Of a stretch of 64,000 bases of DNA, positions 2,451 to 59,916 are shown piece by piece (positions within the stretch are counted from its first letter, which is position 1; each line of letters starts with the position of its first letter). The stretch is from Dehalococcoidia bacterium (lineage in GTDB: Bacteria > Chloroflexota > Dehalococcoidia > Bin125): assembly GCA_963662615.2 (NCBI GenBank), contig CAXXSR010000001.1, forward strand, positions 1,024,001-1,088,000, given 5' to 3'. Made by a program: the position numbers and the translations under genes. A model generated the notes under the pieces. The model saw nothing but the letters and a program-made list of their open reading frames with translations, did no database searches and was not told the DNA's origin.

Positions 2451-5400
2451 ATGGCGTGGCAGCCCCCGGCTCAGGCGGGGCTCTATGACCCCCAGGTTGC
2501 GCACGACGCCTGCGGCGTCGGCTTCATCGCCAACGTCAACGGCACGCGCTCGCACGAGATCGTGGCGCTGGCGGTCCGGGCGATCGGCAATCTCACCCAT
2601 CGCGGCGCCGTCAACGCCGACCCCATGACGGGCGACGGCGTGGGACTCACGATCCAGATCCCCTTCGAGCTGCTGGAAGAGTACGCAGCGCGATTCGATC
2701 GCTCGCTCGAGCACAGCGACGATCTGGTCGTCGCCATGACCTTCCTGCCGTCCCCAGAGGCGGACCGCCCCGCCGCTCGGGCCATTCTGGAGGAGGCCGC
2801 TGACAGCTGCGGCCTGGAGGTGATCGGCTGGCGCGTGGTTCCGACGGATCCCTCCGTCTTGGGCGCCTCGGCGCTCGAGTCGCTGCCCGGGATCGAACAG
2901 CTTCTCATGGTGCGTCCGCCCGGCCTGGAGCGCGATGACTTCCAGCGGGCCATCTACCTGGCCCGCCGCCGCGCCGAGCGCGCCTACCGCGAGCGCGCGC
3001 TTGACTGCTACATCGTTTCCATGTCCGCCCGCACCGTGGTCTACAAGGGCCTGATGGTCGCGCACCAGCTCGACCGCTTCTACGCCGACCTCAAGGATGC
3101 ACGCGCGGTCTCGGCCCTGGCCCTGTTCCATCAGCGCTTCGCCACCAACACGCTGCCCAACTGGAAGCTGGCGCAGCCGTTCCGCTACCTCGCCCACAAC
3201 GGCGAGATCAACACCCTCGTCGGCAACCGCAATTGGATGAAGGCGCGCGATCGGGAGTTGACCGCTCCCGGGTGGGACGACCAACTCGCCGAGCTCGCGC
3301 CCAGCATCACCGACAGCGGCTCCGACAGCGCCTCTCTGGACGAGGCGCTCGACCTCCTCGTCAACTCGGGACGTGATCCACTCCACGCCATGATGATGCT
3401 GATCCCAGAAGCCTGGGAGAACATGCCCGACATTGACCCGGAGCTGCGCGGGTTCTACGAGTATCACGCCTGCCTCACCGAGCCCTGGGACGGCCCCGCC
3501 GCCGTCGCCTTCACGGACGGCGTTGTCGCCGCCGCCGCGCTTGACCGCAACGGTCTCCGGCCCGCCCGCTATCAGGTCACCCGCCAGGGCATGGTCGTGA
3601 TGGCCTCCGAAGTTGGCCTGCTCGGCCTGCCCATTGAAGACATCGTCGAATCGGGCCGCCTGGGGCCGGGCGAGATGATCGCCGTCGACACCGACCGCGG
3701 TCTCATTCTTCGCAACGATGCCATCAAGCGCCGCTTCGCCGCCCGCCGCCCCTACGCGGACTGGGTGCAGCGAGGCCTGGTCCATCTGGAGCCGGGGCTC
3801 GGCCACGTCGACGGGCGCCTGCGCTCGGAGCCCGCGGCCGACGTGGAGACCCGCCAAGTGCTTCACGGCTACACCAAAGAGGAGATGCAGTACGTCATCA
3901 AGCCCATGGTGCGCGCCGGCAAGGAGCCGGTGGGCTCCATGGGAGACGACACCCCCCCCTCGGCGCTGCAGGACGCGCCGCGCCTGCTCTACACGTACTT
4001 CCGGCAGCAGTTCGCCCAGGTCACCAACCCGCCCATCGACTCGCTGCGCGAGAAGATCGTTATGTCGCTGGACACGTACTTGGGCCGGCAACACTCGCTC
4101 CTGGAAGAGGGTCCGGAGGCGGCGCGCCTGATCCACCTGGCCAGCCCCCTCCTCCTGGATGAGGAGCTGGCCCGACTCCGAGAACTCCGTGTGGACGCCT
4201 TGAAGCTCACCACGCTCCATGCCCGCTTCCCCGCCGCCGCCGGCCCCCGAGGACTCCGCGCCGGCCTTGACGAACTGGCCGCCGCCGCGGACCGCGCCGT
4301 GGACCAGGGCCGCACCGTCCTGGTAATCAGCGACCGCTCCACAGACGCGGAGTGGGCCCCCATCCCCATGCTGCTCGCCATTGCCACGGTGCATCATCAC
4401 CTCATTCGCAGCGGCCGCCGCATGCGCGCCAGCCTGATCGCCGAGACCGGCGACGCTCGCGACGTCCACCACTTCGGCTGCCTGATCGGCTTCGGCGCCA
4501 GCGCCGTCAATCCCTATCTGGCCTTCGAGACGCTCCGCGCCCTCCACGCCGGCGGCGAGTTCGACGAAGACGGCTTCGACGACGTCTTGGGCCGCTACCA
4601 GCAGGCGATCGATGCCGGCATTCTCAAGATCATGTCCAAGATGGGCATCTCCGCCGTCTCCTCCTATCACGGCGCCCAGATCTTCGAGGCGCTCGGCGTC
4701 CGCGATGAGCTGATCGAGTACGCCTTCCCCGGCACGACCTCGCGCATTGGCGGCGTCGGCTTCGAGGATGTGGGGCGCGATGTGCTGGCGCGGCACGCCG
4801 AAGCCTATCCCGTCGCCCAGCTCGACCCCGGGGGCTGGTACAAGTACCGCCGCGACGGTGACTACCATGCCAACGAGCCCCCCGTCTGGCGCGCCCTCCA
4901 CAAGGTCGCCCAGGGCGGCGGCGAGGAGGAGTACCGCCAGTACGTGGAGACTGTGCAGCAGCGCCCGCCGGCGGCGCTCCGCGACCTCCTGGAGTTCCAC
5001 TCCGACCGCGACCCGATTCCGGTTGAGCAAGTAGAGGACATCGACGCCATCGTCCAGCGCTTTCAGACCGGCGCCATGTCCCTGGGCGCTCTGGGCCCGG
5101 AGGCGCACGAGGACATCGCCCGCGCCATGAACCTGCTGGGGGGGCGCTCCAACACCGGCGAGGGAGGCGAAGACCCCCGCCGCTTCCTGCCCGACGGCGA
5201 CAAGCGCGACGCCAATTCACAGGTGAAGCAGGTCGCCTCCGGCCGCTTCGGTGTGACCCCGGCCTACCTGGCCGGCGCCGCGGAGGTGGAGATCAAGATC
5301 GCTCAAGGGTCGAAGCCCGGCGAAGGCGGACAGCTCCCCGGCCACAAGGTTTCGCCCTACATCGCCTCCTTGCGCCATTCCACGCCGGGGGTCGAGCTGA

Positions 5401-30360: not shown

Positions 30361-30370
30361 CCCAAAGCGC

Positions 30371-30403: not shown

Positions 30404-30414
30404 GCTGTCCCCCC

Positions 30415-30547
30415 TTCGCCCTGACCTGTCCTTCGCGCAGCAGAAGGAGCTTGTCGAAGGGTGAACGGAGGCCACGCGTCTCAGCCCCGCGGCAGCCCCA
30501 ACCCCCGCGTCGCGATGATGTTGCGCTGAATCTCCGACGTCCCCGCC
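30415..30547. repeat. 133-bp direct repeat, copy A (long REP plus acyl-CoA dehydrogenase 3' end)
   Basis: Matches 30946-31078 with 2 mismatches. Confidence 0.95.
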
Positions 30548-30568
30548 CTATTCCTGTAACGTGAACGG

Positions 30569-30955
30569 GTGGGCACATTCCGCGTCCAGATCGAGATCGG
30601 CGACCCCCAGGGCCAGCGCTGGGAGACCGCGGACGTCCTCGTGGACACCGGCGCGACGTACTCCTGGCTCTCCGCGGAGCTCCTGCGGCGCCTGGACGTT
30701 CGGCCCGAGTTCAGCATTGAGTTCGAGACGGCTGACGGCCGCGTTATTCGTCGCGACGCGGCTCACACGCGGGCTCGCCTTGACGGGCAGGAGCGCATCA
30801 CCATCGTCGTCTTCGGCGATGAAGGGTCGCAATCGTTGCTGGGGGCGTACACCCTGGAGGGGTTCCTGTTGGCTCCGGACCCCGTGAATGAGCGCCTCAT
30901 TCATGTCCGTGGCCTGGCGATGGCTACGTCCTTCGCCTCTCACCGTTCGCCCTGA
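30569..30955 (+). CDS. Clan AA (retropepsin-like) aspartyl protease family protein
   Basis: LVDTGATYS, ETADGR, LLGAYTLEG; lies between the two direct repeats. Confidence 0.85.
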   Translation: MGTFRVQIEIGDPQGQRWETADVLVDTGATYSWLSAELLRRLDVRPEFSIEFETADGRVIRRDAAHTRARLDGQERITIVVFGDEGSQSLLGAYTLEGFLLAPDPVNERLIHVRGLAMATSFASHRSP

Positions 30956-31078
30956 CCTGTCCTTCGCGCAGCAGAAGGAGCTTGTCGAAGGGTGAACGGA
31001 GACCACGCGTCTCAGCCCCGCGGCAGCCCCAACCCCCGCGTCGCGATGATGTTGCGCTGTATCTCCGACGTCCCCGCC
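30946..31078. repeat. 133-bp direct repeat, copy B
   Basis: Long REP at 30943-30999 plus the functional 3' end of the acyl-CoA dehydrogenase gene. Confidence 0.95.
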
Positions 31079-32187
31079 GCAATCGTGTATGACGTCGTCG
31101 CCATGTAGCCCTCCGGCATCGCTCCCAGCAACGGCGGCGACGCCGGGGAGCCGCGCCGCAGCGCCCCCCACGCGCCCAGCAGGTTGACGCCCGCCCGCAA
31201 GATCGCCGTCTGCACCTCCGACCCCAACAGCTTCGACATCGACGCCTCCGCGTTCGGCACCTCGCCCCGCGACTGCATCCACGTCACCCGATACGCCAGC
31301 AGCCGCGCCGTCTCATTCGCGATCCAGAGGTCGGCCAACTGGTTGCGCAGGCTCGACGGTCGCGGCCCGCCGCGCTCCCGCACGTAGGCGATCAGCTCCT
31401 CCAGGATCCGACGCGCCCACATGACCCGGCCAATGCCGCTGCGCTCGTAGTCCAACGTCGTCGTCGCCACGTACCAGCCCCGGTTCTCCTCGCTCACCAG
31501 ATTCCGGCGCGGGACGCGGACGTCCGCCATGAAGATCTCGTTGAACGCGGGCGACCCCAGCATGTTCACAAGCGGCCGCACCTCCACTCCGGGCGACCGC
31601 ATCTCCATCATCAGGAAGGAGATCCCCCGATGCTTGGGGGCGTCGGGGTCGGTCCGCGCCAGCAGCATGCACCAGTCGGCGCCCTGGGCGTGGCTGGTCC
31701 AGATCTTCTGGCCGTTGACCACGAAGTCGTCGCCGTCGCGCACGGCCCGCGTCTGCAGCGACGCCAGGTCCGACCCCGACCCCGGCTCCGAGAAGCCCTG
31801 GCACCAGACCTCATCCCCGGCCGCGATCGCCGACAGGTGCTCGGCCTTTTGCTCCTCCGTGCCGTGATGCATGAGCGTGGGGCCCATCATGCTGGCGCCA
31901 AAGGTGTCGGTCGGCGCCATGTGGTAGCCCATCTCCTCATTGAAGACCAGCTGCTGCATGAGGCCGGCGCCCAGGCCGCCGTACTCCTGGGGCCAGTGCA
32001 GCGTCAGCCAGCCCCGCGCCGCCAGCTTCTTCAGGAACCGACGCTTGAACTCCAGCGCACCGACCGGCTCCTCCTCACGCTCGTTCTGCAAGCGCCAGTG
32101 ATCCGGCGGCAGCTCCTCCTGCAGGAACCGTCGCAGCTCCCCCCGGAACGCCTCTTCCGCCGCCGTGAACTGATAGTCGATTGGCAC
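31012..32187 (-). CDS. Acyl-CoA dehydrogenase
   Basis: WCQGFSEPGSGSDLASL, VNGQKIWTS, PKHRGIS, AGTSEIQRNII. Confidence 0.95.
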   Translation of the reverse strand: MPIDYQFTAAEEAFRGELRRFLQEELPPDHWRLQNEREEEPVGALEFKRRFLKKLAARGWLTLHWPQEYGGLGAGLMQQLVFNEEMGYHMAPTDTFGASMMGPTLMHHGTEEQKAEHLSAIAAGDEVWCQGFSEPGSGSDLASLQTRAVRDGDDFVVNGQKIWTSHAQGADWCMLLARTDPDAPKHRGISFLMMEMRSPGVEVRPLVNMLGSPAFNEIFMADVRVPRRNLVSEENRGWYVATTTLDYERSGIGRVMWARRILEELIAYVRERGGPRPSSLRNQLADLWIANETARLLAYRVTWMQSRGEVPNAEASMSKLLGSEVQTAILRAGVNLLGAWGALRRGSPASPPLLGAMPEGYMATTSYTIAAGTSEIQRNIIATRGLGLPRG

Positions 32188-34800: not shown

Positions 34801-34959
34801 GAACCGCACCGCTCAAAGCGAACCTGTACCGCTTGTGGCAGACTCGTCCCGCCCGTGTCGAACTCGCACCGCTCGCGCTGAACTCGTCCCGACCGTGGCG
34901 AGTTCCTCCCGCTCGTGGTGAGCCCCTCCCGCTCGTGGTGAGCCTGTCGAACCACGAGC
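34801..34959. repeat. Degenerate 20-bp tandem array (7 units) ending in a REP palindrome (34931-34959)
   Basis: 20-nt rows from 34801 share CCG at positions 9-11; the last two rows end cccgctcgtggtg and lead into gagcctgtcgaaccacgagc. Confidence 0.8.
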
Positions 34960-35022
34960 CTGCCCGCCGTCGGCCGCCGGGAGGATAACCGGCCCCGTGC
35001 GCCGCAGGAAGGACCGACCGCG

Positions 35023-38744: not shown

Positions 38745-38883
38745 CCGTTCGCCCTGACCTGTCCTTCCGTCTGAGGAAGGAGCCTGTCGAAGGGTCGTCC
38801 TGACCTGTTCTTCCTTCTGAGGAAGGAGCTTGCCTGTCCTGATCCTTCCCTGCGGGAAGGACGAAGGGTCGAAGGGCGAACGG
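38745..38883. repeat. Compound, nested REP cluster (two long REPs plus an extra nested hairpin)
   Basis: ccgttcgccctga-cctgtccttc-cgtctgag-gaagga-gcctgtcgaaggg then tcgtcctga-cctgttcttc-cttctgag-gaagga-gcttg...tcgaagggcgaacgg. Confidence 0.9.
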
Positions 38884-38887
38884 CAAA

Positions 38888-38950: not shown

Positions 38951-40764
38951 CTACGACGCCGCGATCGCGCACACCGCGAACACCTGCAGCTGCCAGAGCG
39001 GCGGCGGCGGGTCGTTTGGCTTCGTCTCAGGGAAGGTGCGCACCGCGACCACCTCCCACCCCGTTAGCTCAATGTCGAAGGGGGCGCTCCGCTGGAGGGC
39101 CACCTCGGACACGTTGAGTGCGATGCCGCCGTCCAGCAACACCTCGTATCCGCCCCCGATCGCCTTCTTGCCCGCCGGACAGAAGGCGACCACGCTGTGC
39201 ACCTCGCTCAAGTCAGCCGGACTCCCCGCAATGACCAACTCCAGCCCTGCCAGCCCTCCACTCGGACCCCCACCGCCAGAGGGGGCGGGACAGCCCTTCG
39301 GGCCGCTATTGGCGGGGCTCACCAGGTCGAGAGCAACCTCCGTGAAGGCGCCGGCAAGGACGTCGAACGAATCACTCGGGCAGGAGTCCCCGATGGTGAA
39401 GGTGACGGACGCAGCATCGGCGGAAAACACCAGGATCTCCCAGGTGAGCCCACCTAGGGACAGGGGCAAATTCGCGATGGTCGCCTCGCCCACGAGTTCG
39501 CCGCTTTCGTTGTCGGCTCGAACTACGGACCCGGCGGCGGCCAACTCGCCGTCTAGCAACGCCCCCGATCCAGTGCTCTCGCTTCCGAAGAACCCTTGAG
39601 GTGGCACCACTGGCGGCGGCTCCTGACCGCCACAGCCATTCGGCCCGCTATTGGCGAGGCTCACCAGGTCCAGCGCGACCTCGCTAAGCGTGCCGGACAC
39701 GACCGCAAAAGCGTCGCTTGGGCAGGAGTCGCCAATGCGGAATACCACCGTAGTAGCAACAGTTGGCTCCACCTGAATGACCCAGGTGCCATCCGTGATC
39801 GTCGTAGCATCCACCAGGACGCCCGCCTCGTTCGCAGCGCTTACTCCGGATCCGTCCGGCGCCTGGACCCCGTCCAGGAGCGCCGCCGAACCCGTGTTCA
39901 CGCTGCCGAAGAACTGGGCCGGCCCCGGCGGCACCGGCTCGATTTGCCCCCGCACTTGACCGGCCGGATTGGCCGCGGTGTGGACGTCGGCGTAGGTCTG
40001 GCCATTGCTGAGGGACGCGACGAAGGCCTCAAAATCCCCCGCCAGGACGTCCAGGAGGTCCGCGACGGTGATCGTGCCGCTCGTGAGCACGCCATCGACA
40101 GCGGGGTCGGCCGGCCCGAAGAGGAACGCCACCACCGTCCCGTTCACGTCCGGCTCGCCCAGGTGGATGTGCGCCTGCGTGATCTCCAACGCGTCCGAGG
40201 TCAGGGTGTAGTCCAGCGCCCCGTCCGTGACCATGGCATTGAAGCCGCCCGTCGCGATCGTGGTAATCGGCGGCACCACGGCGTCACCGCTCAGCGTCGC
40301 GCTGAACGACGTCGGCGGCGGCAGCGGCGGCGGCGCCTGACCGCCACAGCCACTCGTGCCGCTATTGGCGAGGCTCAAGAGGTCCAGCGCGACCTGGGTC
40401 AGCGTGCCGGACGCGACCGCAAAAGCGGCGCTTGGGCAGGAGTCTTCAATGCGGAATACGACCGTAGTGGCAGCAGTTGGCTCCACCTGAATGGCCCAGG
40501 TTCCATCCGTGATCGTCGTAGCATCCACCAGGACGCCCGCCTCGTTCGCAGCGCTCACTCCGGATCCGTCCGGCGCCTGGACCCCGTCCAGGAGCGCCGC
40601 CGATCCGGTGTTCACGCTGCCGAAGAACTGGGCCGGGGCCGGCGGGGCGCCTCCTGCGCCAGCGCTGCCGTCACTCCGTAAGCCATCGCCCCCATGATCG
40701 CCAGCGCGACCAGCGCCAGCGTCCCGCGCCTGCCCAGTGAACGCACAATCGTCAAAGTACTCAT
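38951..40764 (-). pseudogene. Secreted protein with a CHRD domain and three ~100-aa repeat domains; frameshifted just after the signal peptide
   Basis: The signal-peptide ORF from ATG 40764 joins the 38951..40615 frame if one C is added at the run 40644-40647; CHRD motifs FSATLSG...ITQAHIH...YADVHT...GQVRGQI. Confidence 0.7.
39622..40636. repeat. Intragenic near-identical ~300-bp duplication (39622-39922 and 40336-40636)
   Basis: Both encode AQFFGSVNTGSAALLDGVQAPDGSGVSAANEAG...SLANSG..GCGGQ. Confidence 0.9.
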
Positions 40765-40859
40765 TGCTACTTCCTCGCTTTCACGCCGGAACCCGATCCG
40801 GCTCCGCTGATGAATGGACCGGGGCCGCATAGGTTACGGTCCACCGGCGGGACTTCTTG

Positions 40860-41351
40860 CTAAGGTGTGACTTCGCCCGGTGGAGGCCCCATGGGGTCGC
40901 TGCTGCAGTTAAGGCCGTCCGTCGGCGGACCATCCTTCGCCTGGCCCACCGAAGCCAGATCAAGGTCGACCTCTTCTATCTCGCCGGAAACCCACGGGAA
41001 CGACACACTTTCTTCGGAATAGGACCCGCGCGCCGAAATGATGAACCTGACGCTGGTAGCGCTCCCCGGGTCAACCTGAATAAACCAGACCCCCTGACAG
41101 ATGGGCGAGGCGCCAACAATATCTCCGCCCACGTTGAGGGCACTGACCACGCCGCCGCTCCGGATGTCCTTGCCGTCAAGCGTTGCCGGCGAGCCGTTTT
41201 CGAGGTCGCCATAAAATGCATGTGGCGGGGGCGGCGGCGGCTGTGCGCTGGCCGTCGATAAGCCGAAGGCCATCGCGCCCATGACCGCCAGCGCGACCAG
41301 CGCTAGCGTCCCGCGTCTGCCCAGTGACCGCATACTCGTCACATTTCTCAT
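40860..41351 (-). CDS. Secreted single-domain paralog of the adjacent repeat protein
   Basis: Signal RSLGRRGTLALVALAVMGAMAFG is nearly identical to the neighbour's; PPHAFYG...LDG...WFIQV domain. Confidence 0.75.
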   Translation of the reverse strand: MRNVTSMRSLGRRGTLALVALAVMGAMAFGLSTASAQPPPPPPHAFYGDLENGSPATLDGKDIRSGGVVSALNVGGDIVGASPICQGVWFIQVDPGSATSVRFIISARGSYSEESVSFPWVSGEIEEVDLDLASVGQAKDGPPTDGLNCSSDPMGPPPGEVTP

Positions 41352-41817
41352 CGTTGCTTCCTCACGTTCGCGCCGGAACCTGTTTCGGCTGCGCTGCTAG
41401 ATGCACGGGGATGCCCTCCGGTGCGGTCCACTCCCGCGATTGGCAACGCCGCCAAGAACGGCAGTCCAAACAGGGACTGGCCCATGGTTGCCGGCAGCGC
41501 CGGCTCGCCGAACCTCGCGTCAATCGATGTCATCTCTGCATCGCCCTCCCATTCCCCAGAGCCCATCGTCGCGCCGCCCATGCCATCCCAAACGACGGCG
41601 CGCCTCCATAGGTTCCGGATCCTCCCGAATGGTCGAAGTGCGCGGGAACTTACTAGAGCGCGATGTCGTTTGGCATCGTATGAACGACGACCACCGCAAC
41701 ATCCCCTGCCGCGACCCGCCCCCTCTGAGGCCCTAGCGCCGCGCCCCTCGATGGCGCGCGCGCACCTTGATCCCTCACCTTCACGTGAAGGATCCGACGG
41801 AAAGGAATTTTCTAATC

Positions 41818-47038: not shown

Positions 47039-47096
47039 CCCGTTCGTCCCGAGCGTGTCGAAGAGCCTGTCCTGAGCTTGCCGAAGGAGCGAACGG
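47039..47096. repeat. REP copy with a second REP core nested inside
   Basis: cccgttcgtccc-gagcgtgtcga-agagcctgtcct-gagcttgccga-aggagcgaacgg; its 5' flank ccgcgagcgcgggcgaaaaa also precedes the 38745 copy. Confidence 0.85.
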
Positions 47097-47102
47097 AACA
47101 GC

Positions 47103-54437: not shown

Positions 54438-54470
54438 CCGTTCACCCTGAGCCTGTCGAAGGGCGAACGG
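54438..54470. repeat. REP, short form
   Basis: ccgttcaccct-gagcctgtcga-agggcgaacgg. Confidence 0.9.
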
Positions 54471-54495: not shown

Positions 54496-55047
54496 ATGAT
54501 CATCACCATCTGCGCCAGCATGACCCTGGCGGAGCGGATCCGCGCGGTCCAAGAGCAACTCCGCGCGCTCGGCCACACCGTCTACGTCCCTGTCGAGGTT
54601 GAGGAGTTCGACTACCAGGACGCCACCACGGAGGAGCGCGCCGACCTCAAGCGCACGCACGACCTGATCCGCGAGCACTGGCGCAAGATCCAGCGATCGG
54701 ACGCCATCCTCGTCCTCAACGAGGACGCCAAGGGCTTTCGCCACTACATCGGCGGCAACTCCTTCTTGGAGATGGGCTTCGCCCACATCCTCCATCTGCC
54801 CATCTACCTCATGCACGACGTCCCCGACATGCCCTATGCCAGCGAGATGGAGGCCATGGACGTCGCCATCATTCGCGGCGACCTCACGCGCATGCCCCTG
54901 ACCCCTCCCGCTCGCCCTGACCTGTCCTTCCCTCCTGGGAAGGAGCCTCTGGAAGGGCGGGAGCCTGCCCCTCCCGTTCGTCCTGAGCCTGTCGAAGGGG
55001 GAACGGACAGCGGAACCCGCAATGAGGCCGTGGAGCGCGCCCCGTGA
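54496..55047 (+). CDS. Nucleoside 2-deoxyribosyltransferase-fold protein; C-terminus runs through REP copies
   Basis: ITICASM, SDAILVLN, YIGGNSFLEMGFA, PIYL; GGAGG SD. Confidence 0.7.
   Translation: MIITICASMTLAERIRAVQEQLRALGHTVYVPVEVEEFDYQDATTEERADLKRTHDLIREHWRKIQRSDAILVLNEDAKGFRHYIGGNSFLEMGFAHILHLPIYLMHDVPDMPYASEMEAMDVAIIRGDLTRMPLTPPARPDLSFPPGKEPLEGREPAPPVRPEPVEGGTDSGTRNEAVERAP
54908..55006. repeat. Two REP copies (long form 54908-54964, short form 54973-55006)
   Basis: cgctcgccctga-cctgtccttc-cctcctgg-gaagga-gcctctggaaggg; cccgttcgtcct-gagcctgtcga-agggggaacgg. Confidence 0.88.
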
Positions 55048-56306: not shown

Positions 56307-56345
56307 CGGGCCCGTGCAGGGCCTGGGCGCCGCTTGCCGCCCACC

Positions 56346-56432
56346 CATGAGTCGTCGCCACTTCATGAGTCGCCACTTCATGAGTCGCCACTTCATGAGT
56401 CGCCACTTCATGAGTCGCCACTTCACAAGTCG
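56346..56432. repeat. 15-bp VNTR (catgagtcgccactt), about 5.5 copies
   Basis: Four perfect units 56364-56423, one 18-bp variant before them and a partial unit after. Confidence 0.95.
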
Positions 56433-58254: not shown

Positions 58255-59199
58255 ATGAGCGCCACCGAAACCCGCGACGTGATGCTGACATCCGACCTCC
58301 CCCTGCCCAAGAAACAGGGCAAGGTCCGCGACATCTATGACCTTGGCTCCTCGGAATGGGGCGACCGCCTCCTCATCGTCGCCAGCGATCGTGTCTCCGC
58401 CTTCGACGTCGTCCTGCCCAACGGCATCCCCGACAAGGGCCGCGTCCTCACGCAAATGTCGGCCTTCTGGTTCGAGCGCACTCGCGAGGTGGTCCCGAAC
58501 CACATGATCCGTGTCATCGATTCCACCTCCAACCCCGATCTTCCCCTCTCCCTCCCGCCCCAATACATCGGCCGCTCCATGCTCGTGCGCAAAGCCGAGC
58601 CGGTCATGTTGGAGGCGATCGTGCGCGGCTACCTCTCAGGCAGCGGCTGGAAGGATTACCAGGCCGGCGGCCGCATCTGCGGCATCGCCTTGCCCCCCGG
58701 CTTGCGCGAGTCCGACGCCCTCCCCCAAGCCATCTTCACCCCCTCCACGAAGGCGGAGACCGGCCACGACGAGAACATCACCTACGAGGAGGCCGCCGCG
58801 CTCGTCGGGGAAGATCTCGCCAACGCCATCAAGGTCCGCGCCCTCGCCCTCTACACCTACGGCCTCGAGCGGGCCCTGCAGCGCGGCTTCCTCATCGCCG
58901 ATACCAAGTTCGAGTTCGGCCTGGTCGAAAACGACGAGGGCGAACGCGAGCCGATCCTGATCGACGAAGCGCTCACCCCGGATTCGTCGCGCTTTTGGGA
59001 CGTCGCCATCTACCAGCCTGACCGGCCTCAGCCCTCCTACGACAAGCAGCCCCTGCGCGACTGGCTGGAGGCGCGCGACTGGAACAAACAGCCCCCGGCC
59101 CCCGCGCTCCCCCCGGAGGTCGTGGCCGACCTCCGCGATCGCTACCTCCAGGCCTTCACCCGCATCACCGACCGCGACCTGCTCCGCCCGCCCGCCTAA
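58255..59199 (+). CDS. purC: SAICAR synthase
   Basis: GKVRDIY, SDRVSAFD, RGYLSGSGW, ADTKFEFG, DEALTPDSSRFW. Confidence 0.97.
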   Translation: MSATETRDVMLTSDLPLPKKQGKVRDIYDLGSSEWGDRLLIVASDRVSAFDVVLPNGIPDKGRVLTQMSAFWFERTREVVPNHMIRVIDSTSNPDLPLSLPPQYIGRSMLVRKAEPVMLEAIVRGYLSGSGWKDYQAGGRICGIALPPGLRESDALPQAIFTPSTKAETGHDENITYEEAAALVGEDLANAIKVRALALYTYGLERALQRGFLIADTKFEFGLVENDEGEREPILIDEALTPDSSRFWDVAIYQPDRPQPSYDKQPLRDWLEARDWNKQPPAPALPPEVVADLRDRYLQAFTRITDRDLLRPPA

Positions 59200-59202
59200 C
59201 CC

Positions 59203-59311
59203 CCGCTCACCCTGACCTGTCCTTGCCGGCTGGGAAGGAGCTTGTCGAAGAGCCGAACCACGCCGCAGCGGTGCTATTCCGTTCGTCCTGAGCCTGTCGA
59301 AGGGCGAACGG
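59203..59311. repeat. Two REP copies upstream of the GIY-YIG gene (long 59203-59259, short 59279-59311)
   Basis: ccgctcaccctga-cctgtccttg-ccggctgg-gaagga-gcttgtcgaag; ccgttcgtcct-gagcctgtcga-agggcgaacgg. Confidence 0.9.
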
Positions 59312-59324
59312 CCAAAGGCGAAAG

Positions 59325-59633
59325 ATGAGCTTCTTCGTTTACATCATCCGTTGCGCTGACGGGTCGTATTACACGGGCCACACCGACGACCTTGAGGCCC
59401 GCATCGCAGCACACCACGAGGGCGCCATCCCCGGATATACTCGCAGCCGTCGACCGGTCGCGTTTCAGTTTTCACAGGAGTTCGCGGCCAGGGAGGAAGC
59501 CCTCGCACGCGAGTCTCAAATCAAGCGCTGGACCCGTCGAAAGAAGGAGGCGCTCATTCGGGGCGACTGGGAGGGCCTCCAAGCGTTTTCGCCCGTTCGT
59601 GGTTCGACAAGCTCACCACGAACGGGAGGCTAA
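59325..59633 (+). CDS. GIY-YIG nuclease family protein (UPF0213-like)
   Basis: VYIIRCADGSYYTGHTDDL..R...H, EALARE-QIKRWTRRKKEALI. Confidence 0.93.
   Translation: MSFFVYIIRCADGSYYTGHTDDLEARIAAHHEGAIPGYTRSRRPVAFQFSQEFAAREEALARESQIKRWTRRKKEALIRGDWEGLQAFSPVRGSTSSPRTGG
59592..59626 (-). repeat. REP copy in inverted orientation inside the 3' end of the GIY-YIG gene
   Basis: cccgttcgtggt-tcgacaagctc-accacgaacggg; the loop is the reverse complement of gagcttgtcga. Confidence 0.9.
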
Positions 59634-59643
59634 AGGCTGCCAG

Positions 59644-59916
59644 ATGCACTTCAAAGCCGACATTTACGTCACCCTCAAGCGCACCGTCAACGACCCCGAG
59701 GGCCTGACCATCAAGGGCGCCCTCCACCAGCTCGACTTCGTCGATGTAGACGACGTCCGCGCCGGCAAATACATCGAACTCTGGCTCGACGCGCCCGACA
59801 AAGCGAGCGCCGAAGCGCGTATTGACGCCATGTGCGACAAGCTCCTCGCCAACCCCGTCATCGAGAGCTACCGCTACACCGTCACCGCCGCCGATCCAGC
59901 CGGGACCAAGAAGTGA
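59644..59916 (+). CDS. purS: Phosphoribosylformylglycinamidine synthase subunit PurS
   Basis: VTLKRTVNDPEG, VRAGKYIEL, MCDKLLANPVIESY. Confidence 0.95.
   Translation: MHFKADIYVTLKRTVNDPEGLTIKGALHQLDFVDVDDVRAGKYIELWLDAPDKASAEARIDAMCDKLLANPVIESYRYTVTAADPAGTKK

What the first reader, a model, noticed from the sequence alone, without database searches (positions are those of the whole stretch)
59203..59633. GIY-YIG nuclease bracketed by inverted REP palindromes: candidate RAYT-analogous REP-mobilising system
Seen: a 102-aa GIY-YIG gene sits between purC and purS. Two REP copies lie upstream (59203, 59279) and one inverted copy lies in its 3' end (59592). The same REP (11-12-bp stem, fixed asymmetric loop GAGCYTGTCGA) recurs about 13 times: 30415, 30943, 34931, 38745, 38797, 47039, 47068, 54438, 54908, 54973, 59203, 59279, 59592. 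The stems covary (CCCT/AGGG versus TGGT/ACCA) while the loop is conserved, so both structure and loop sequence appear selected. Established: HUH-type RAYT transposases are flanked by inverted copies of the REPs they act on. Inference: a GIY-YIG nuclease may play that role here. No HUH transposase or integrase is present in the window.
Basis: partly seen in the sequence, partly recalled or inferred. Interest (0 to 1): 0.8.

Follow-up and report, generated by a model that had tools for sequence, protein, structure and literature searches.

The report
Small nuclease gene framed by hairpin repeats
A tiny nuclease gene sits between two inverted copies of a hairpin repeat that is also scattered through the genome, and the same gene-plus-repeat unit recurs in many bacterial phyla, which suggests a previously undescribed partnership between a nuclease and a family of genomic repeats.

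Summary
Window 59325-59633 encodes a 102-aa GIY-YIG protein of the UPF0213 type between purC and purS. A forward hairpin repeat lies 14 nt upstream and an inverted copy lies inside its last 40 nt. A covariance model finds 10 copies in the 64 kb.

The pairing is conserved across genomes. In 79 related loci from at least 8 phyla, 71 carry a repeat of this design at one or both gene ends in the expected orientation. The exact 11-nt core is there in 34 of 75 (upstream) and 42 of 79 (3' end), where about 0.2 loci are expected by chance.

- The 4-5 bp inner stem covaries.
- GAG...TCGA in the loop is invariant.
- Loop variants track the protein clade and the dispersed copies of the same locus.
- The gene is under purifying selection.
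- Gene-less inverted doublets and nested copies exist.

No HUH transposase is in the window, and seven literature searches found no report of the association. Binding, cleavage and mobilisation are untested. GIY-YIG chemistry cannot copy the HUH mechanism. A RAYT elsewhere in the genome could not be excluded.

Verdict: the association is real, widespread and apparently undescribed. The mechanism is inferred only.

The parts
59203..59259 (+). Degenerate long-form repeat just after the purC stop. It has the head CCGCTCA, an inner hairpin, and the core GAGCTTGTCGA.
   Evidence: covariance model 23.5 bits, E 6e-4; member of direct-repeat families D3/D5.
59279..59311 (+). Left terminal repeat of the cassette: CCGTTCGTCCT GAGCCTGTCGA AGGGCGAACGG. 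It ends 14 nt before the ATG.
   Evidence: Model 43.1 bits, E 3e-9. DNA hairpin -10.3 kcal/mol, z -2.8. A forward exact core lies in the -150..-15 window in 34 of 75 related loci.
59325..59633 (+). 102-aa GIY-YIG nuclease gene of the UPF0213 type. The last ~14 residues are encoded by the right repeat.
   Evidence: Pfam PF01541, E 7e-19. PDB relatives 1zg2 and 1ywl. AlphaFold pLDDT 87.9, with the tail below 55. Invariant Y6, Y16, G18, R26, H30 and E63 in 51 sequences.
59593..59625 (-). Right terminal repeat, inverted, lying inside the 3' end of the ORF. On the minus strand it reads CCGTTCGTGGT GAGCTTGTCGA ACCACGAACGG.
   Evidence: Best model hit in the window, 46.1 bits. DNA hairpin -14.6 kcal/mol, z -5.7. 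An inverted exact core lies at +260..+380 in 42 of 79 loci. In-frame ST(S/G)S tail in 79 of 120 homologues.
54438..54470 (+). Dispersed simple repeat between guaA and the next ORF.
   Evidence: 44.0 bits.
54908..54962 (+). Degenerate long-form repeat inside the 3' end of ORF 54496-55047.
   Evidence: Seen by eye; reference copy of family D3; below the model threshold.
54974..55006 (+). Dispersed simple repeat just upstream of purD, inside the 3' end of ORF 54496-55047.
   Evidence: 41.3 bits.
47040..47097 (+). Composite repeat with two degenerate cores between the outer arms CCGTTCGTCC / GGAGCGAACGG. It lies between dapF and miaA, both on the minus strand.
   Evidence: 19.7 bits; gene calls.
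38745..38884 (+). Nested composite of about 140 nt: the outer arms CCGTTCGCCCT / AGGGCGAACGG enclose at least two long-form units.
   Evidence: DNA fold -38.2 kcal/mol, z -5.8. 18.0 bits for the first core.
34929..34961 (+). Dispersed simple repeat (CCGCTCG head, TGGT/ACCA stem) between two minus-strand genes.
   Evidence: 43.0 bits; DNA hairpin -9.7 kcal/mol.
30415..30470 (+). Long-form repeat, the first of two copies that begin a 147-nt direct repeat.
   Evidence: 18.2 bits; family D8.
30946..31001 (+). Long-form repeat, the second copy (147-nt direct repeat, 95% identical).
   Evidence: 18.2 bits.
58282..59199 (+). purC, the upstream neighbour. This is context, not part of the element.
   Evidence: SAICAR_synt, E 1e-67.
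59644..59916 (+). purS, the downstream neighbour. It starts 10 nt after the GIY-YIG stop.
   Evidence: PurS, E 7e-31.

Best explanation
Window 59279-59633 is one conserved cassette of about 0.36 kb. It consists of a left terminal repeat, a ~95-aa GIY-YIG nuclease gene, and a right terminal repeat that is the inverted copy and overlaps the last codons.

Each repeat has three parts: a head CCGTTCG, a covarying 4-5 bp stem, and a cap whose GAG...TCGA is invariant. The middle of the cap may vary, or may hold a whole nested hairpin.

I propose that the protein is the cognate structure- and sequence-specific nuclease of this repeat family. It would recognise the hairpin, either extruded from duplex DNA or formed in single-stranded DNA, at its own ends and at dispersed singlets, doublets and nested copies. 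It would nick there. Host repair or replication would then copy or delete repeats. This gives a RAYT/REP-like partnership built on a different, hydrolytic nuclease.

Shown: the conserved architecture, the covariation, the co-inheritance of loop type with the protein, purifying selection, and duplication of the cassette as a unit.

Inferred: binding, the nick and its position, action in trans, and any role in spreading the repeats.
For: (1) Position. The exact forward core lies at -150..-15 in 34 of 75 loci, and the inverted core at +260..+380 in 42 of 79, with both in 29. The background is 41 cores in 1,029,457 bp, giving about 0.2 loci expected for each end. Under a generic definition (head + 4-bp stem + GAG..CGA), 47 loci have the element upstream, 58 have it at the 3' end, and 71 of 79 have it at one or both ends. 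The background is 34 in 1.03 Mb.

(2) Frame. 79 of 120 top homologues end in the frame-1 translation ST(S/G)S of the inverted core, 61 of them at the same offset.

(3) Structure. Inner stem pairs show heavy compensatory change: pair 11-27 is CG 71 / GC 58, and pair 10-28 is UA 68 / CG 43 / GC 18. The covariation score is 0.412 against 0.191 in shuffles (0 of 500 reach it) and at most 0.18 when partners are slid.

(4) Specificity.
- All 4 loop-class-B loci form one protein clade (SH-aLRT 85) that includes a Syntrophobacter among Betaproteobacteria.
- 6 of 7 class-C loci lie in one clade (support 85) that also holds 3 non-C loci.
- Dispersed copies match the class flanking the gene (Fisher p 0.018 and 0.0045).

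(5) The gene is functional. dN/dS is 0.03-0.18 in the 8 of 13 close pairs where dS was estimable. Y6, Y16, G18, R26, H30 and E63 are invariant.

(6) Fold. Beyond the UPF0213 structures, the nearest solved folds are Slx1 and At-HIGLE, which are nucleases for branched or structured DNA.

(7) Unit of duplication. L016 holds two cassettes 4.7 kb apart. Their similarity starts and stops near the repeats (weaker similarity runs ~35 nt past the right one), and their repeat blocks are more alike than their ORFs.

(8) Mobility over time. There are 48 different upstream and 48 different downstream contexts among 80 sources.

(9) Possible derivatives. There are 17 gene-less forward-reverse core pairs within 200 nt.

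(10) The window has no HUH transposase.
Against: - No biochemical or genetic evidence exists.
- GIY-YIG enzymes hydrolyse DNA and cannot rejoin it, so spreading needs unproven host steps.
- No target-site duplication or common target was seen at 30 cassette ends.
- Replicons of Comamonas and Sphingobium carry up to 17 repeat places but no copy of the gene. This fits action in trans, but equally fits independence from the gene.
- 8 of 79 loci fail the generic test, and about a third of homologues lack the canonical tail.
- Some loci have only one end, or the reversed arrangement (L075, M. bullatum).
- In the loci, repeat orientation shows no link to GC skew.
- The tree is a quick one with weak support.
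- The loci were anchored on the gene, so nothing was sampled starting from the repeat side.
- A RAYT elsewhere in the genome was not excluded.
Confidence: 0.5

Rival explanations
1. The cassette is a selfish, free-standing endonuclease gene that merely uses pre-existing inverted repeat doublets as its landing or homing site. The repeats themselves would be spread by another agent, such as a RAYT elsewhere or a host process.
For: Gene-less forward-reverse doublets have the same polarity as the cassette ends, so they could be empty sites. The cassette occurs in 48 contexts and is duplicated in L016. Replicons rich in repeats lack the gene.
Against: Only 1 of 84 sources shows a second gene copy in the stretch held. 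The gene stays at one syntenic site in 21 sphingomonad loci, which is unlike an invasive homing gene. The 102-aa protein has no separate DNA-binding domain. The repeats lack the GTAG/CGTC tags described for RAYT-linked repeats. The loop class of dispersed copies follows the resident gene's own flanks.
Confidence: 0.18
2. The gene is a host-kept, Slx1-like structure-specific nuclease that removes or processes hairpins and cruciforms formed by these repeats. Alternatively, the flanking repeats are simply its operator and 3' stabiliser. In this reading the repeats spread on their own and the nuclease limits their damage.
For: Strong purifying selection. Long vertical retention at the nrdR-SpoU site. 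Slx1 and HIGLE are the nearest folds outside the family. The left repeat sits 14 nt before the ATG, where binding could autoregulate.
Against: It does not explain why both ends carry the repeat in inverted order in distant phyla, nor why the repeat travels with the gene across phyla. UPF0213 genes of Klebsiella and B. subtilis have no such repeats.
Confidence: 0.17
3. The hairpins act as RNA. They would be a structured motif with tandem G.A pairs, bound or cut by the protein acting as an RNA-binding protein or RNase. Dispersed copies would tune mRNA stability.
For: - The invariant GAG/TCGA can be drawn as tandem G.A pairs, a common RNA-protein platform (my reading; the chemistry is recalled).
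- The cassette is usually co-oriented with its neighbours. Among loci with at least 900 nt of flank, 28 of 71 upstream and 28 of 76 downstream neighbours were called co-oriented, 7 and 12 opposed, and 36 each undetermined, on a crude measure.
- Predicted ORFs often read through into downstream genes.
- RNA methyltransferase genes recur as neighbours.
Against: In the window, 2 of 8 dispersed elements lie antisense within minus-strand gene pairs and 2 lie between convergent genes. In the loci both orientations are equally common. Rfam gives no match at gathering or at E <= 1. No T-run follows the hairpins. GIY-YIG enzymes are known as DNases (recalled).
Confidence: 0.1
4. The association is chance or passive: repeats pile up next to this gene because intergenic space or other repeats attract them.
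For: Repeats do cluster, in arrays and nests.
Against: Fixed position, orientation and reading frame hold across at least 8 phyla, against 0.2 loci expected by chance.
Confidence: 0.03

Closest known systems
RAYT / REP-REPIN systems (HUH Y1 transposase TnpA-REP)
   Same: A small nuclease gene is flanked by inverted copies of the hairpin repeat that is also dispersed in the genome. The gene is mostly single per locus and is vertically kept in one order. Inverted doublets occur. A conserved single-stranded-type head lies next to a covarying stem.
   Different: The protein is a GIY-YIG hydrolase, not an HUH/Y1 enzyme. The repeat has no GTAG or CGTC tag. The right repeat lies inside the coding region in a fixed frame. 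The chemistry cannot be strand transfer through a covalent tyrosine link (recalled).
IS200/IS605 TnpA with subterminal hairpins
   Same: Hairpin ends would be recognised as structure plus sequence.
   Different: IS200/IS605 ends are not inverted repeats and both are cut on one strand (recalled). Here the ends are true inverted repeats, and no orientation bias to GC skew is seen across the loci.
UPF0213 / COG2827 proteins (BH0048 1zg2, EF2693 1ywl, B. subtilis YazA, enterobacterial YhbQ)
   Same: Same family by sequence (E 4e-24 and 2e-18) and by fold. They are of similar size (96 and 107 aa) and, as far as I recall, of unknown function.
   Different: The Klebsiella yhbQ and B. subtilis yazA loci have no such repeats by the covariance model. 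The repeat link therefore marks one clade, of 242 clusters at E <= 1e-30 out of 24,316.
Slx1 and At-HIGLE, structure-specific GIY-YIG nucleases
   Same: These are the nearest solved folds outside the family (Foldseek probability 0.99-1.00, TM 0.48-0.59). They cut branched DNA (from the PDB entry titles and from recall).
   Different: No RING or zinc finger, no Slx4 partner, one third of the size, and E-values of only 6e-3 to 9e-2.
Free-standing GIY-YIG homing endonucleases (I-TevI, Seg proteins)
   Same: A GIY-YIG gene forms the only cargo of a small, possibly mobile unit.
   Different: Those enzymes carry a long DNA-binding domain and live in phage genomes or introns (recalled). Here the protein is 102 aa, there is no PHROG match, and the setting is chromosomal housekeeping operons.
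MITEs, and Rickettsia palindromic elements
   Same: Gene-less doublets bounded by terminal inverted repeats. Repeats are read in frame as protein tails.
   Different: No DDE transposase and no target-site duplication were seen. The comparison with Rickettsia elements is recalled, not tested.

Membership tests
GIY-YIG nuclease superfamily | Match to the GIY-YIG catalytic domain profile | tested here: met
   PF01541, E 7.3e-19, 68.3 bits against a cutoff of 22.6, residues 3-74.
GIY-YIG nuclease superfamily | Catalytic Tyr, Tyr, Arg, His and Glu residues present | tested here: met
   Y6, Y16, G18, H19, R26, H30 and E63 are invariant in 51 sequences. Assigning these to catalytic roles is recalled from I-TevI and UvrC, not tested.
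UPF0213 (COG2827; YazA/YhbQ type) | Single-domain protein of about 100 aa that is alignable end to end with solved members | tested here: met
   1zg2 at E 3.7e-24 over 3-92; 1ywl at E 1.8e-18. Foldseek ranks 1 and 2.
REP (repetitive extragenic palindrome) | Short, imperfect palindrome, many copies, mostly between genes | tested here: met
   10 model hits in 64 kb. DNA hairpins of -8 to -14.6 kcal/mol. Most copies are intergenic, but 3 overlap ORF 3' ends.
RAYT/REPIN system | Associated gene is an HUH Y1 transposase (Y1_Tnp) | tested here: not met
   The gene is GIY-YIG. No Y1_Tnp appears among 57 window ORFs.
RAYT/REPIN system | Gene flanked by inverted copies of the dispersed repeat | tested here: met
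   True in the window. 29 of 79 loci have exact cores at both ends, and 71 of 79 have the generic element at one or both ends.
RAYT/REPIN system | GTAG or CGTC tag at one end of the repeat | tested here: not met
   The head is CCGTTCG or CCGCTCA. Tags are as described in PMC3733652 (passages read).
RAYT/REPIN system | One gene copy per genome, vertically inherited | tested here: inconclusive
   1 of 84 sources has two copies in the stretch held. 21 sphingomonad loci share one site. Each of 18 plasmid-collection records has one place. Whole genomes were not examined.
RAYT/REPIN system | Repeat number depends on the gene | not testable with these tools
   This needs whole genomes.
TIR transposon / MITE | Terminal inverted repeats bounding the unit | tested here: met
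   30 cassettes end in CCGTTCG...GAGCYTGTCGA and its inverse. 17 gene-less forward-reverse pairs exist.
TIR transposon / MITE | Target-site duplication and a transposase | tested here: not met
   No consistent direct repeat at 30 cassette ends. No transposase domain in the window.
Homing endonuclease (I-TevI / Seg type) | Nuclease domain joined to a DNA-binding domain | tested here: not met
   The 102-aa protein has one domain, and its tail is disordered and repeat-encoded. Longer predicted forms run into unrelated downstream genes.
Slx1 | GIY-YIG domain plus a C-terminal RING/zinc finger | tested here: not met
   There is no second domain. Fold similarity covers the nuclease core only.
Known RNA families (Rfam 15) | Match to a curated covariance model | tested here: not met
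   0 matches at gathering score over the window, and 0 at E <= 1 over 59150-59700.

The most novel reading that the evidence does not exclude
This would be a new class of prokaryotic mobile or semi-domesticated element. It is a cassette of about 0.4 kb, bounded by inverted repeats, whose only product is a ~95-aa GIY-YIG nuclease. The nuclease would recognise a hairpin with an invariant GAG/TCGA platform and drive the spread of its own miniature derivatives (singlets, doublets, nested copies) across at least 8 phyla. That would make it a second, mechanistically independent REP system beside RAYT. It would also give a first function to a clade of the UPF0213 family.
Probability: 0.3. Interest if true: 0.9.

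Novelty: new variant of a known kind. Interest (0 to 1): 0.78.

Why it matters
REP-type repeats are among the commonest non-coding features of bacterial genomes. The only established driver is the HUH-type RAYT, and many REP-like families without the RAYT tags have no known partner (PMC3733652, passages read).

This repeat family can be followed from Chloroflexota to Sphingomonadales, Burkholderiales, Nitrospirota and others. It is tied by position, orientation, reading frame and loop type to a tiny nuclease of a family that, as far as I recall, has had solved structures but no known function for about twenty years.

If the protein acts on the hairpin, four things follow:
- the origin of a pan-bacterial repeat is explained;
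- UPF0213 proteins gain a testable substrate;
- a very small enzyme specific for both structure and sequence is added to the known set;
- many odd C-terminal tails and apparent gene fusions in annotations are explained as repeat-encoded.

Tried and rejected
1. Literature. Seven full-text searches found no paper linking GIY-YIG, UPF0213, COG2827 or YhbQ to REP, REPIN or MITE repeats, and none holding the core sequence or its peptide translations. The terms included GIY-YIG with 'repetitive extragenic palindromic', REPIN/RAYT, palindromic repeat/MITE/COG2827/UPF0213, REP/transposase/stem-loop, four 14-nt core strings and two peptide strings, and terminal inverted repeat/non-autonomous/insertion sequence. 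I saw only listings and abstracts, plus passages of PMC3733652. Subscription journals are not covered.

2. Family and motif libraries. There were no matches in Rfam, NCBIfam, PADLOC or PHROGs.

3. Replication-strand bias. In the window all 8 dispersed exact cores are on the + strand (binomial p 0.008) and GC skew is -0.11 throughout. In the 79 loci, however, orientation is unrelated to skew: 10 forward and 14 reverse in positive-skew loci, 19 and 15 in negative-skew loci. I therefore did not build on it.

4. Target-site duplication. None was consistent at 30 cassette ends.

5. True fusion proteins. Long ORFs join the GIY-YIG domain to SpoU, MeaB, a deaminase, AIRS, FGase or JAB domains. The partners are unrelated to each other, and PGAP annotates two overlapping genes in S. 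parapaucimobilis. I read these as read-through of repeat-encoded linkers, not as fusions.

6. Plasmid collection as a co-occurrence test. The gene is in 18 records and the repeat in 45, with no overlap. This is uninformative because chromosomes are absent from that collection.

7. Careful maximum-likelihood tree. It did not finish in 300 s, so the quick tree was used.

8. Co-orientation with neighbours. I had only a crude longest-ORF measure, and 36 of 71 upstream and 36 of 76 downstream calls were undecided.

9. Not run.
- No protein-DNA model was available.
- No complex prediction was sent, because no protein-protein claim is made.
- The window's own genome was not recovered; the best related locus is 63% identical.
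Full report
**What is in the window**

Positions 59325-59633 (+) encode a 102-aa protein that matches the GIY-YIG catalytic domain (PF01541, E 7.3e-19). The gene lies between purC (58282-59199, SAICAR_synt E 1.2e-67) and purS (59644-59916, PurS E 7.2e-31).

Three repeat copies sit at the gene:
- 14 nt before the ATG is the hairpin CCGTTCGTCCT-GAGCCTGTCGA-AGGGCGAACGG (59279-59311).
- A degenerate long form lies further upstream (59203-59259).
- The inverted copy (59593-59625) lies inside the last codons, so the protein ends in the repeat-encoded tail VRGSTSSPRTGG.

The core GAGCYTGTCGA occurs 9 times exactly. With up to one mismatch it occurs 15 times against 3.2 expected, and 0 of 100 shuffles reach 15.

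A covariance model built from 150 copies finds 10 sites in the window at E <= 0.02, nine on the + strand. One composite element was counted twice. Two degenerate long forms (38797, 54908) are visible by eye and in the repeat families but fall below the model's threshold.

The simple copies fold as DNA hairpins of -8.1 to -14.6 kcal/mol. A Pfam scan of 57 ORFs, taken from a crude GC3-based gene call, shows housekeeping genes and no HUH transposase, integrase or other transposase.

**The association is conserved far beyond this genome**

A word-indexed protein search gave 1678 relatives of 56-179 aa. Of the 120 listed, 79 end in ST(S/G)S, which is the frame-1 translation of the inverted core. 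In 61 of these the motif sits at the same offset after the last helix. Several of the remainder carry degenerate versions.

A genome scan with a 51-sequence alignment confirmed 585 relatives and returned 79 loci with up to 10 kb on each side. They come from Chloroflexota, Sphingomonadales, Burkholderiales and other Pseudomonadota, Nitrospirota, Thermodesulfobacteriota, Binatia, Planctomycetota (Kuenenia), Campylobacterota, and one contig binned as Nitrososphaera. The window's own genome was not among them; the best locus is 63% identical.

Counts for the exact core:
- Forward, 15-150 nt upstream of the start: 34 of 75 loci that have that much sequence.
- Inverted, at +260..+380: 42 of 79 loci.
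- Both: 29 loci.
- Background more than 1 kb away: 41 cores in 1,029,457 bp, so about 0.2 loci are expected for each end.

With one mismatch allowed the counts are 41 of 75, 50 of 79 and 37.

Many other loci carry loop variants or nested forms at the same places. I therefore used a generic definition: head CCGYT(C/A)R, a 4-bp stem, and a loop from GAG to CGA. By that definition 47 loci have the element upstream, 58 have it at the 3' end, and 71 of 79 have at least one. The background is 34 in 1.03 Mb. Of the 8 misses, at least L005, L020, L033, L055 and L073 hold an exact core at one gene end that lacks the head required by the rule, and L075 has the reversed arrangement.

**Anatomy of the repeat**

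The alignment is asymmetric. It shows a conserved 5' head CCGTTCG (or CCGCTCA), 4-5 covarying base pairs, and the 11-nt cap. After that the sequence is variable in most copies. The full 11-bp palindromes seen in the window are a subset.

The five inner pairs form a standard pair in 79-91% of copies, and four of them change heavily on both sides (10-64 cells each):
- Pair 11-27: CG 71, GC 58.
- Pair 10-28: UA 68, CG 43, GC 18.

The covariation score is 0.412 against 0.191 in shuffles, with 0 of 500 reaching it. When partners are slid by 1-3 columns the score is at most 0.18. The outer six pairs form in only 38-63% of copies.

At 30 cassettes the outermost bases are CCGTTCG on the left and CGAACGG on the right. 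The gene is therefore bounded by true terminal inverted repeats of about 26 nt.

Across 83 distinct long forms, the invariant parts of the 'loop' are GAG and TCGA. The middle is CYTG, GTA, CGAAG or GYTC, or it is a whole second hairpin. The regular sphingomonad form is CCGYTCR-TCCT-GAG-TA-[stem-GAGCYTGKCGA-stem]-GTA-TCGA-AGGA.

My reading, which rests on recalled nucleic-acid chemistry and was not tested, is that T-GAG and TCGA-A pair as T:A, G.A, A.G and G:C. That would be tandem sheared G.A pairs in the stable YGAR context. They would continue the stem and leave only a small, freely variable apical loop. This would explain why the middle can vary or hold an insert.

**Evidence that protein and repeat belong together**

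*Loop class follows the protein.* In a quick maximum-likelihood tree of the first 92 residues of all 80 proteins, the four loci whose flanks carry the GAGGTATCGA loop form one clade (SH-aLRT 85). That clade includes a Syntrophobacter among Betaproteobacteria. Six of seven loci with GAGCG(A/C)AGTCGA fall in one sphingomonad clade (support 85) that also holds three loci of other classes. Phyla are otherwise mixed. The careful tree search did not finish and most forks are weak, so this is suggestive only.

*Dispersed copies match the class next to the resident gene* (Fisher tests):
- Class-A loci have 32 A, 3 B, 2 C and 3 D motifs in 662 kb of far sequence.
- Class-B loci have 3 B and 2 A in 50 kb.
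- Class-C loci have 4 C and 3 A in 182 kb.
- Fisher p is 0.018 for A versus B and 0.0045 for A versus C.

*The gene is kept by selection.* dN/dS is 0.03-0.18 in 8 of 13 close pairs; the other 5 were saturated at synonymous sites. The GIY-YIG signature residues are invariant.

*The cassette behaves as a unit.* L016 holds two copies 4.7 kb apart, and it is the only one of 84 sources with a second copy in the stretch held. Similarity begins in the left repeat block; past the right repeat only weaker similarity continues for ~35 nt. The left repeat block is identical over about 65 nt while the ORFs are about 83% identical. Whole repeat units are present in one copy and absent in the other.

*Genomic contexts differ.* There are 48 upstream and 48 downstream contexts among 80 sources, but 21 sphingomonad loci share one site. 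In an annotated isolate that site reads rpiB-glyA-nrdR-GIY-YIG-RNA methyltransferase. This pattern of long vertical retention plus occasional relocation and transfer resembles what is described for RAYTs (abstracts seen).

*Gene-less pairs exist.* There are 17 forward-reverse exact-core pairs within 200 nt, with the same polarity as the cassette ends. There are also 19 reverse-forward, 9 reverse-reverse and 2 forward-forward pairs, and tandem arrays. In L050 the sequence just inside the left repeat of two doublets resembles the gene's 5' leader.

**The protein**

By sequence its solved relatives are the UPF0213 proteins BH0048 (1zg2, E 3.7e-24) and EF2693 (1ywl, E 1.8e-18), whose deposited names are only 'hypothetical UPF0213 protein'.

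The AlphaFold model is confident (pLDDT 87.9) except for the repeat-encoded tail. After the two UPF0213 structures, the nearest folds are Slx1 and At-HIGLE, both nucleases for branched DNA, with probability 0.99-1.00 but weak E-values of 6e-3 to 9e-2.

A full scan of 1.84 billion representatives gives 24,316 clusters at E <= 1e-3, and 242 at E <= 1e-30.

The repeat link is clade-specific. The Klebsiella yhbQ and B. subtilis yazA loci have no hit with the repeat model. A Comamonas replicon has 9 hits in 40 kb, and the S. parapaucimobilis gene has class-C repeats at both ends.

**How it most likely works**

*Shown:* a conserved cassette with inverted hairpin ends, selection for pairing, an invariant GAG/TCGA platform, co-inheritance of loop type, and an intact, constrained nuclease.

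*Inferred:* the protein binds this hairpin as extruded or single-stranded DNA and nicks at or near it, both at its own ends and at dispersed copies. Host repair, replication restart or template switching then copies or removes repeats.

Because GIY-YIG enzymes hydrolyse DNA and do not rejoin it (recalled), this cannot be a copy of the HUH mechanism. It works like RAYT/REP only at the level of the partnership. Nested forms in which a complete hairpin sits between GAG and TCGA hint that the cap itself is where new copies land, but I could not test this.

**Evidence against, and what remains open**

- No common target or target-site duplication was found.
- Some loci have one end only, or the reverse order.
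- About a third of homologues lack the canonical tail.
- Replicons of Comamonas and Sphingobium carry 8-17 repeat places but not the gene. Action in trans from the chromosome would explain this, but so would independence from the gene.
- The loci were all anchored on the gene, so the repeat side was sampled only in the window and in one Comamonas stretch.
- The strand bias of the window's copies (8 of 8 on +, with GC skew -0.11) is not seen elsewhere.
- A RAYT elsewhere in this genome was not excluded.
- An RNA-level role is disfavoured. Copies lie antisense to transcription in the window and Rfam gives no match. It is not excluded, and RNA methyltransferase genes recur as neighbours.

**Novelty**

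Seven full-text searches found no report of this association, of the core sequence, or of its peptide translations. A survey of palindromic repeats states that REP-like families without GTAG/CGTC tags exist and that their protein partners are unknown (PMC3733652, passages read). Subscription literature was not searchable.

I rate this a new variant of a known kind: a REP-nuclease partnership with a different nuclease. There is a fair chance that it is a new class of element.

Noticed in passing
window 54496-55047: A 183-aa ORF with a weak Nuc_deoxyrib_tr match (E 1.4e-3, residues 13-109). Its last ~45 residues are encoded by two repeats (54908-54962 and 54974-55006), giving ...PARPDLSFPPGKEPLEGREPAPPVRPEPVEGG.... 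The repeats appear to have extended or replaced the gene's 3' end.
   Followed up: partly
window 30412-31089: A 147-nt direct repeat (95% identical, 531 nt apart), each copy beginning with a long-form REP. The two copies bracket a 128-aa ORF with retropepsin-like aspartyl protease matches (gag-asp_proteas and Asp_protease_2, E 1e-8). A third copy of its 38-nt tail lies at 30370.
   Followed up: no
window 56339-56432: About six head-to-tail copies of a 15-nt unit (GTCGCCACTTCATGA) lie in the purD-purB spacer.
   Followed up: no
window 1-64000: GC skew is strongly negative throughout (-0.07 to -0.16 per 8 kb). All 8 dispersed exact repeat cores are on the + strand. In the 79 related loci no such bias to skew exists.
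   Followed up: yes
L004, L005, L007, L059; P0125, P0146, P0147, P0205, P0226, P0240, P0249: Predicted ORFs run from the GIY-YIG domain through the repeat-encoded tail into unrelated downstream genes: SpoU methylase, MeaB, a TadA-like deaminase, AIR-synthase-like, FGase and JAB. This explains names such as 'tRNA/rRNA methyltransferase' given to some homologues. PGAP annotates two overlapping genes in S. parapaucimobilis.
   Followed up: partly
L083 (B. subtilis) and L080 (S. parapaucimobilis): UPF0213 genes sit next to RNA methyltransferase genes in distant lineages. yazA overlaps trmNF and rsmI, and the sphingomonad gene overlaps a SpoU-type RNA methyltransferase. This is unexplained and may hint at the family's ancestral role.
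   Followed up: no
L059 4065-4353: Five inverted repeats (exact core) at a 42-nt period directly after the GIY-YIG gene, a degenerate unit, then a sixth exact copy 84 nt on. The predicted ORF reads through them into meaB.
   Followed up: no
L052: A complete cassette lies on a 1.7-kb contig binned as Nitrososphaera, an archaeon. Its protein groups with Thermodesulfobacteriota in the tree. This is either a binning error or transfer to an archaeon.
   Followed up: no
L081 (Methylobacterium bullatum) 2930-3430: A 49%-identical homologue is flanked by a different nested repeat (CCTCATCCT-GAG-...-TCGA-AGGAGG) in the opposite order: inverted copy upstream, forward copy downstream. The GAG/TCGA frame is kept.
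   Followed up: partly
window 39290-41431: Long internal direct repeats (300 nt at 91%, 208 nt at 75%) lie within and after the CHRD-domain ORF on the minus strand.
   Followed up: no
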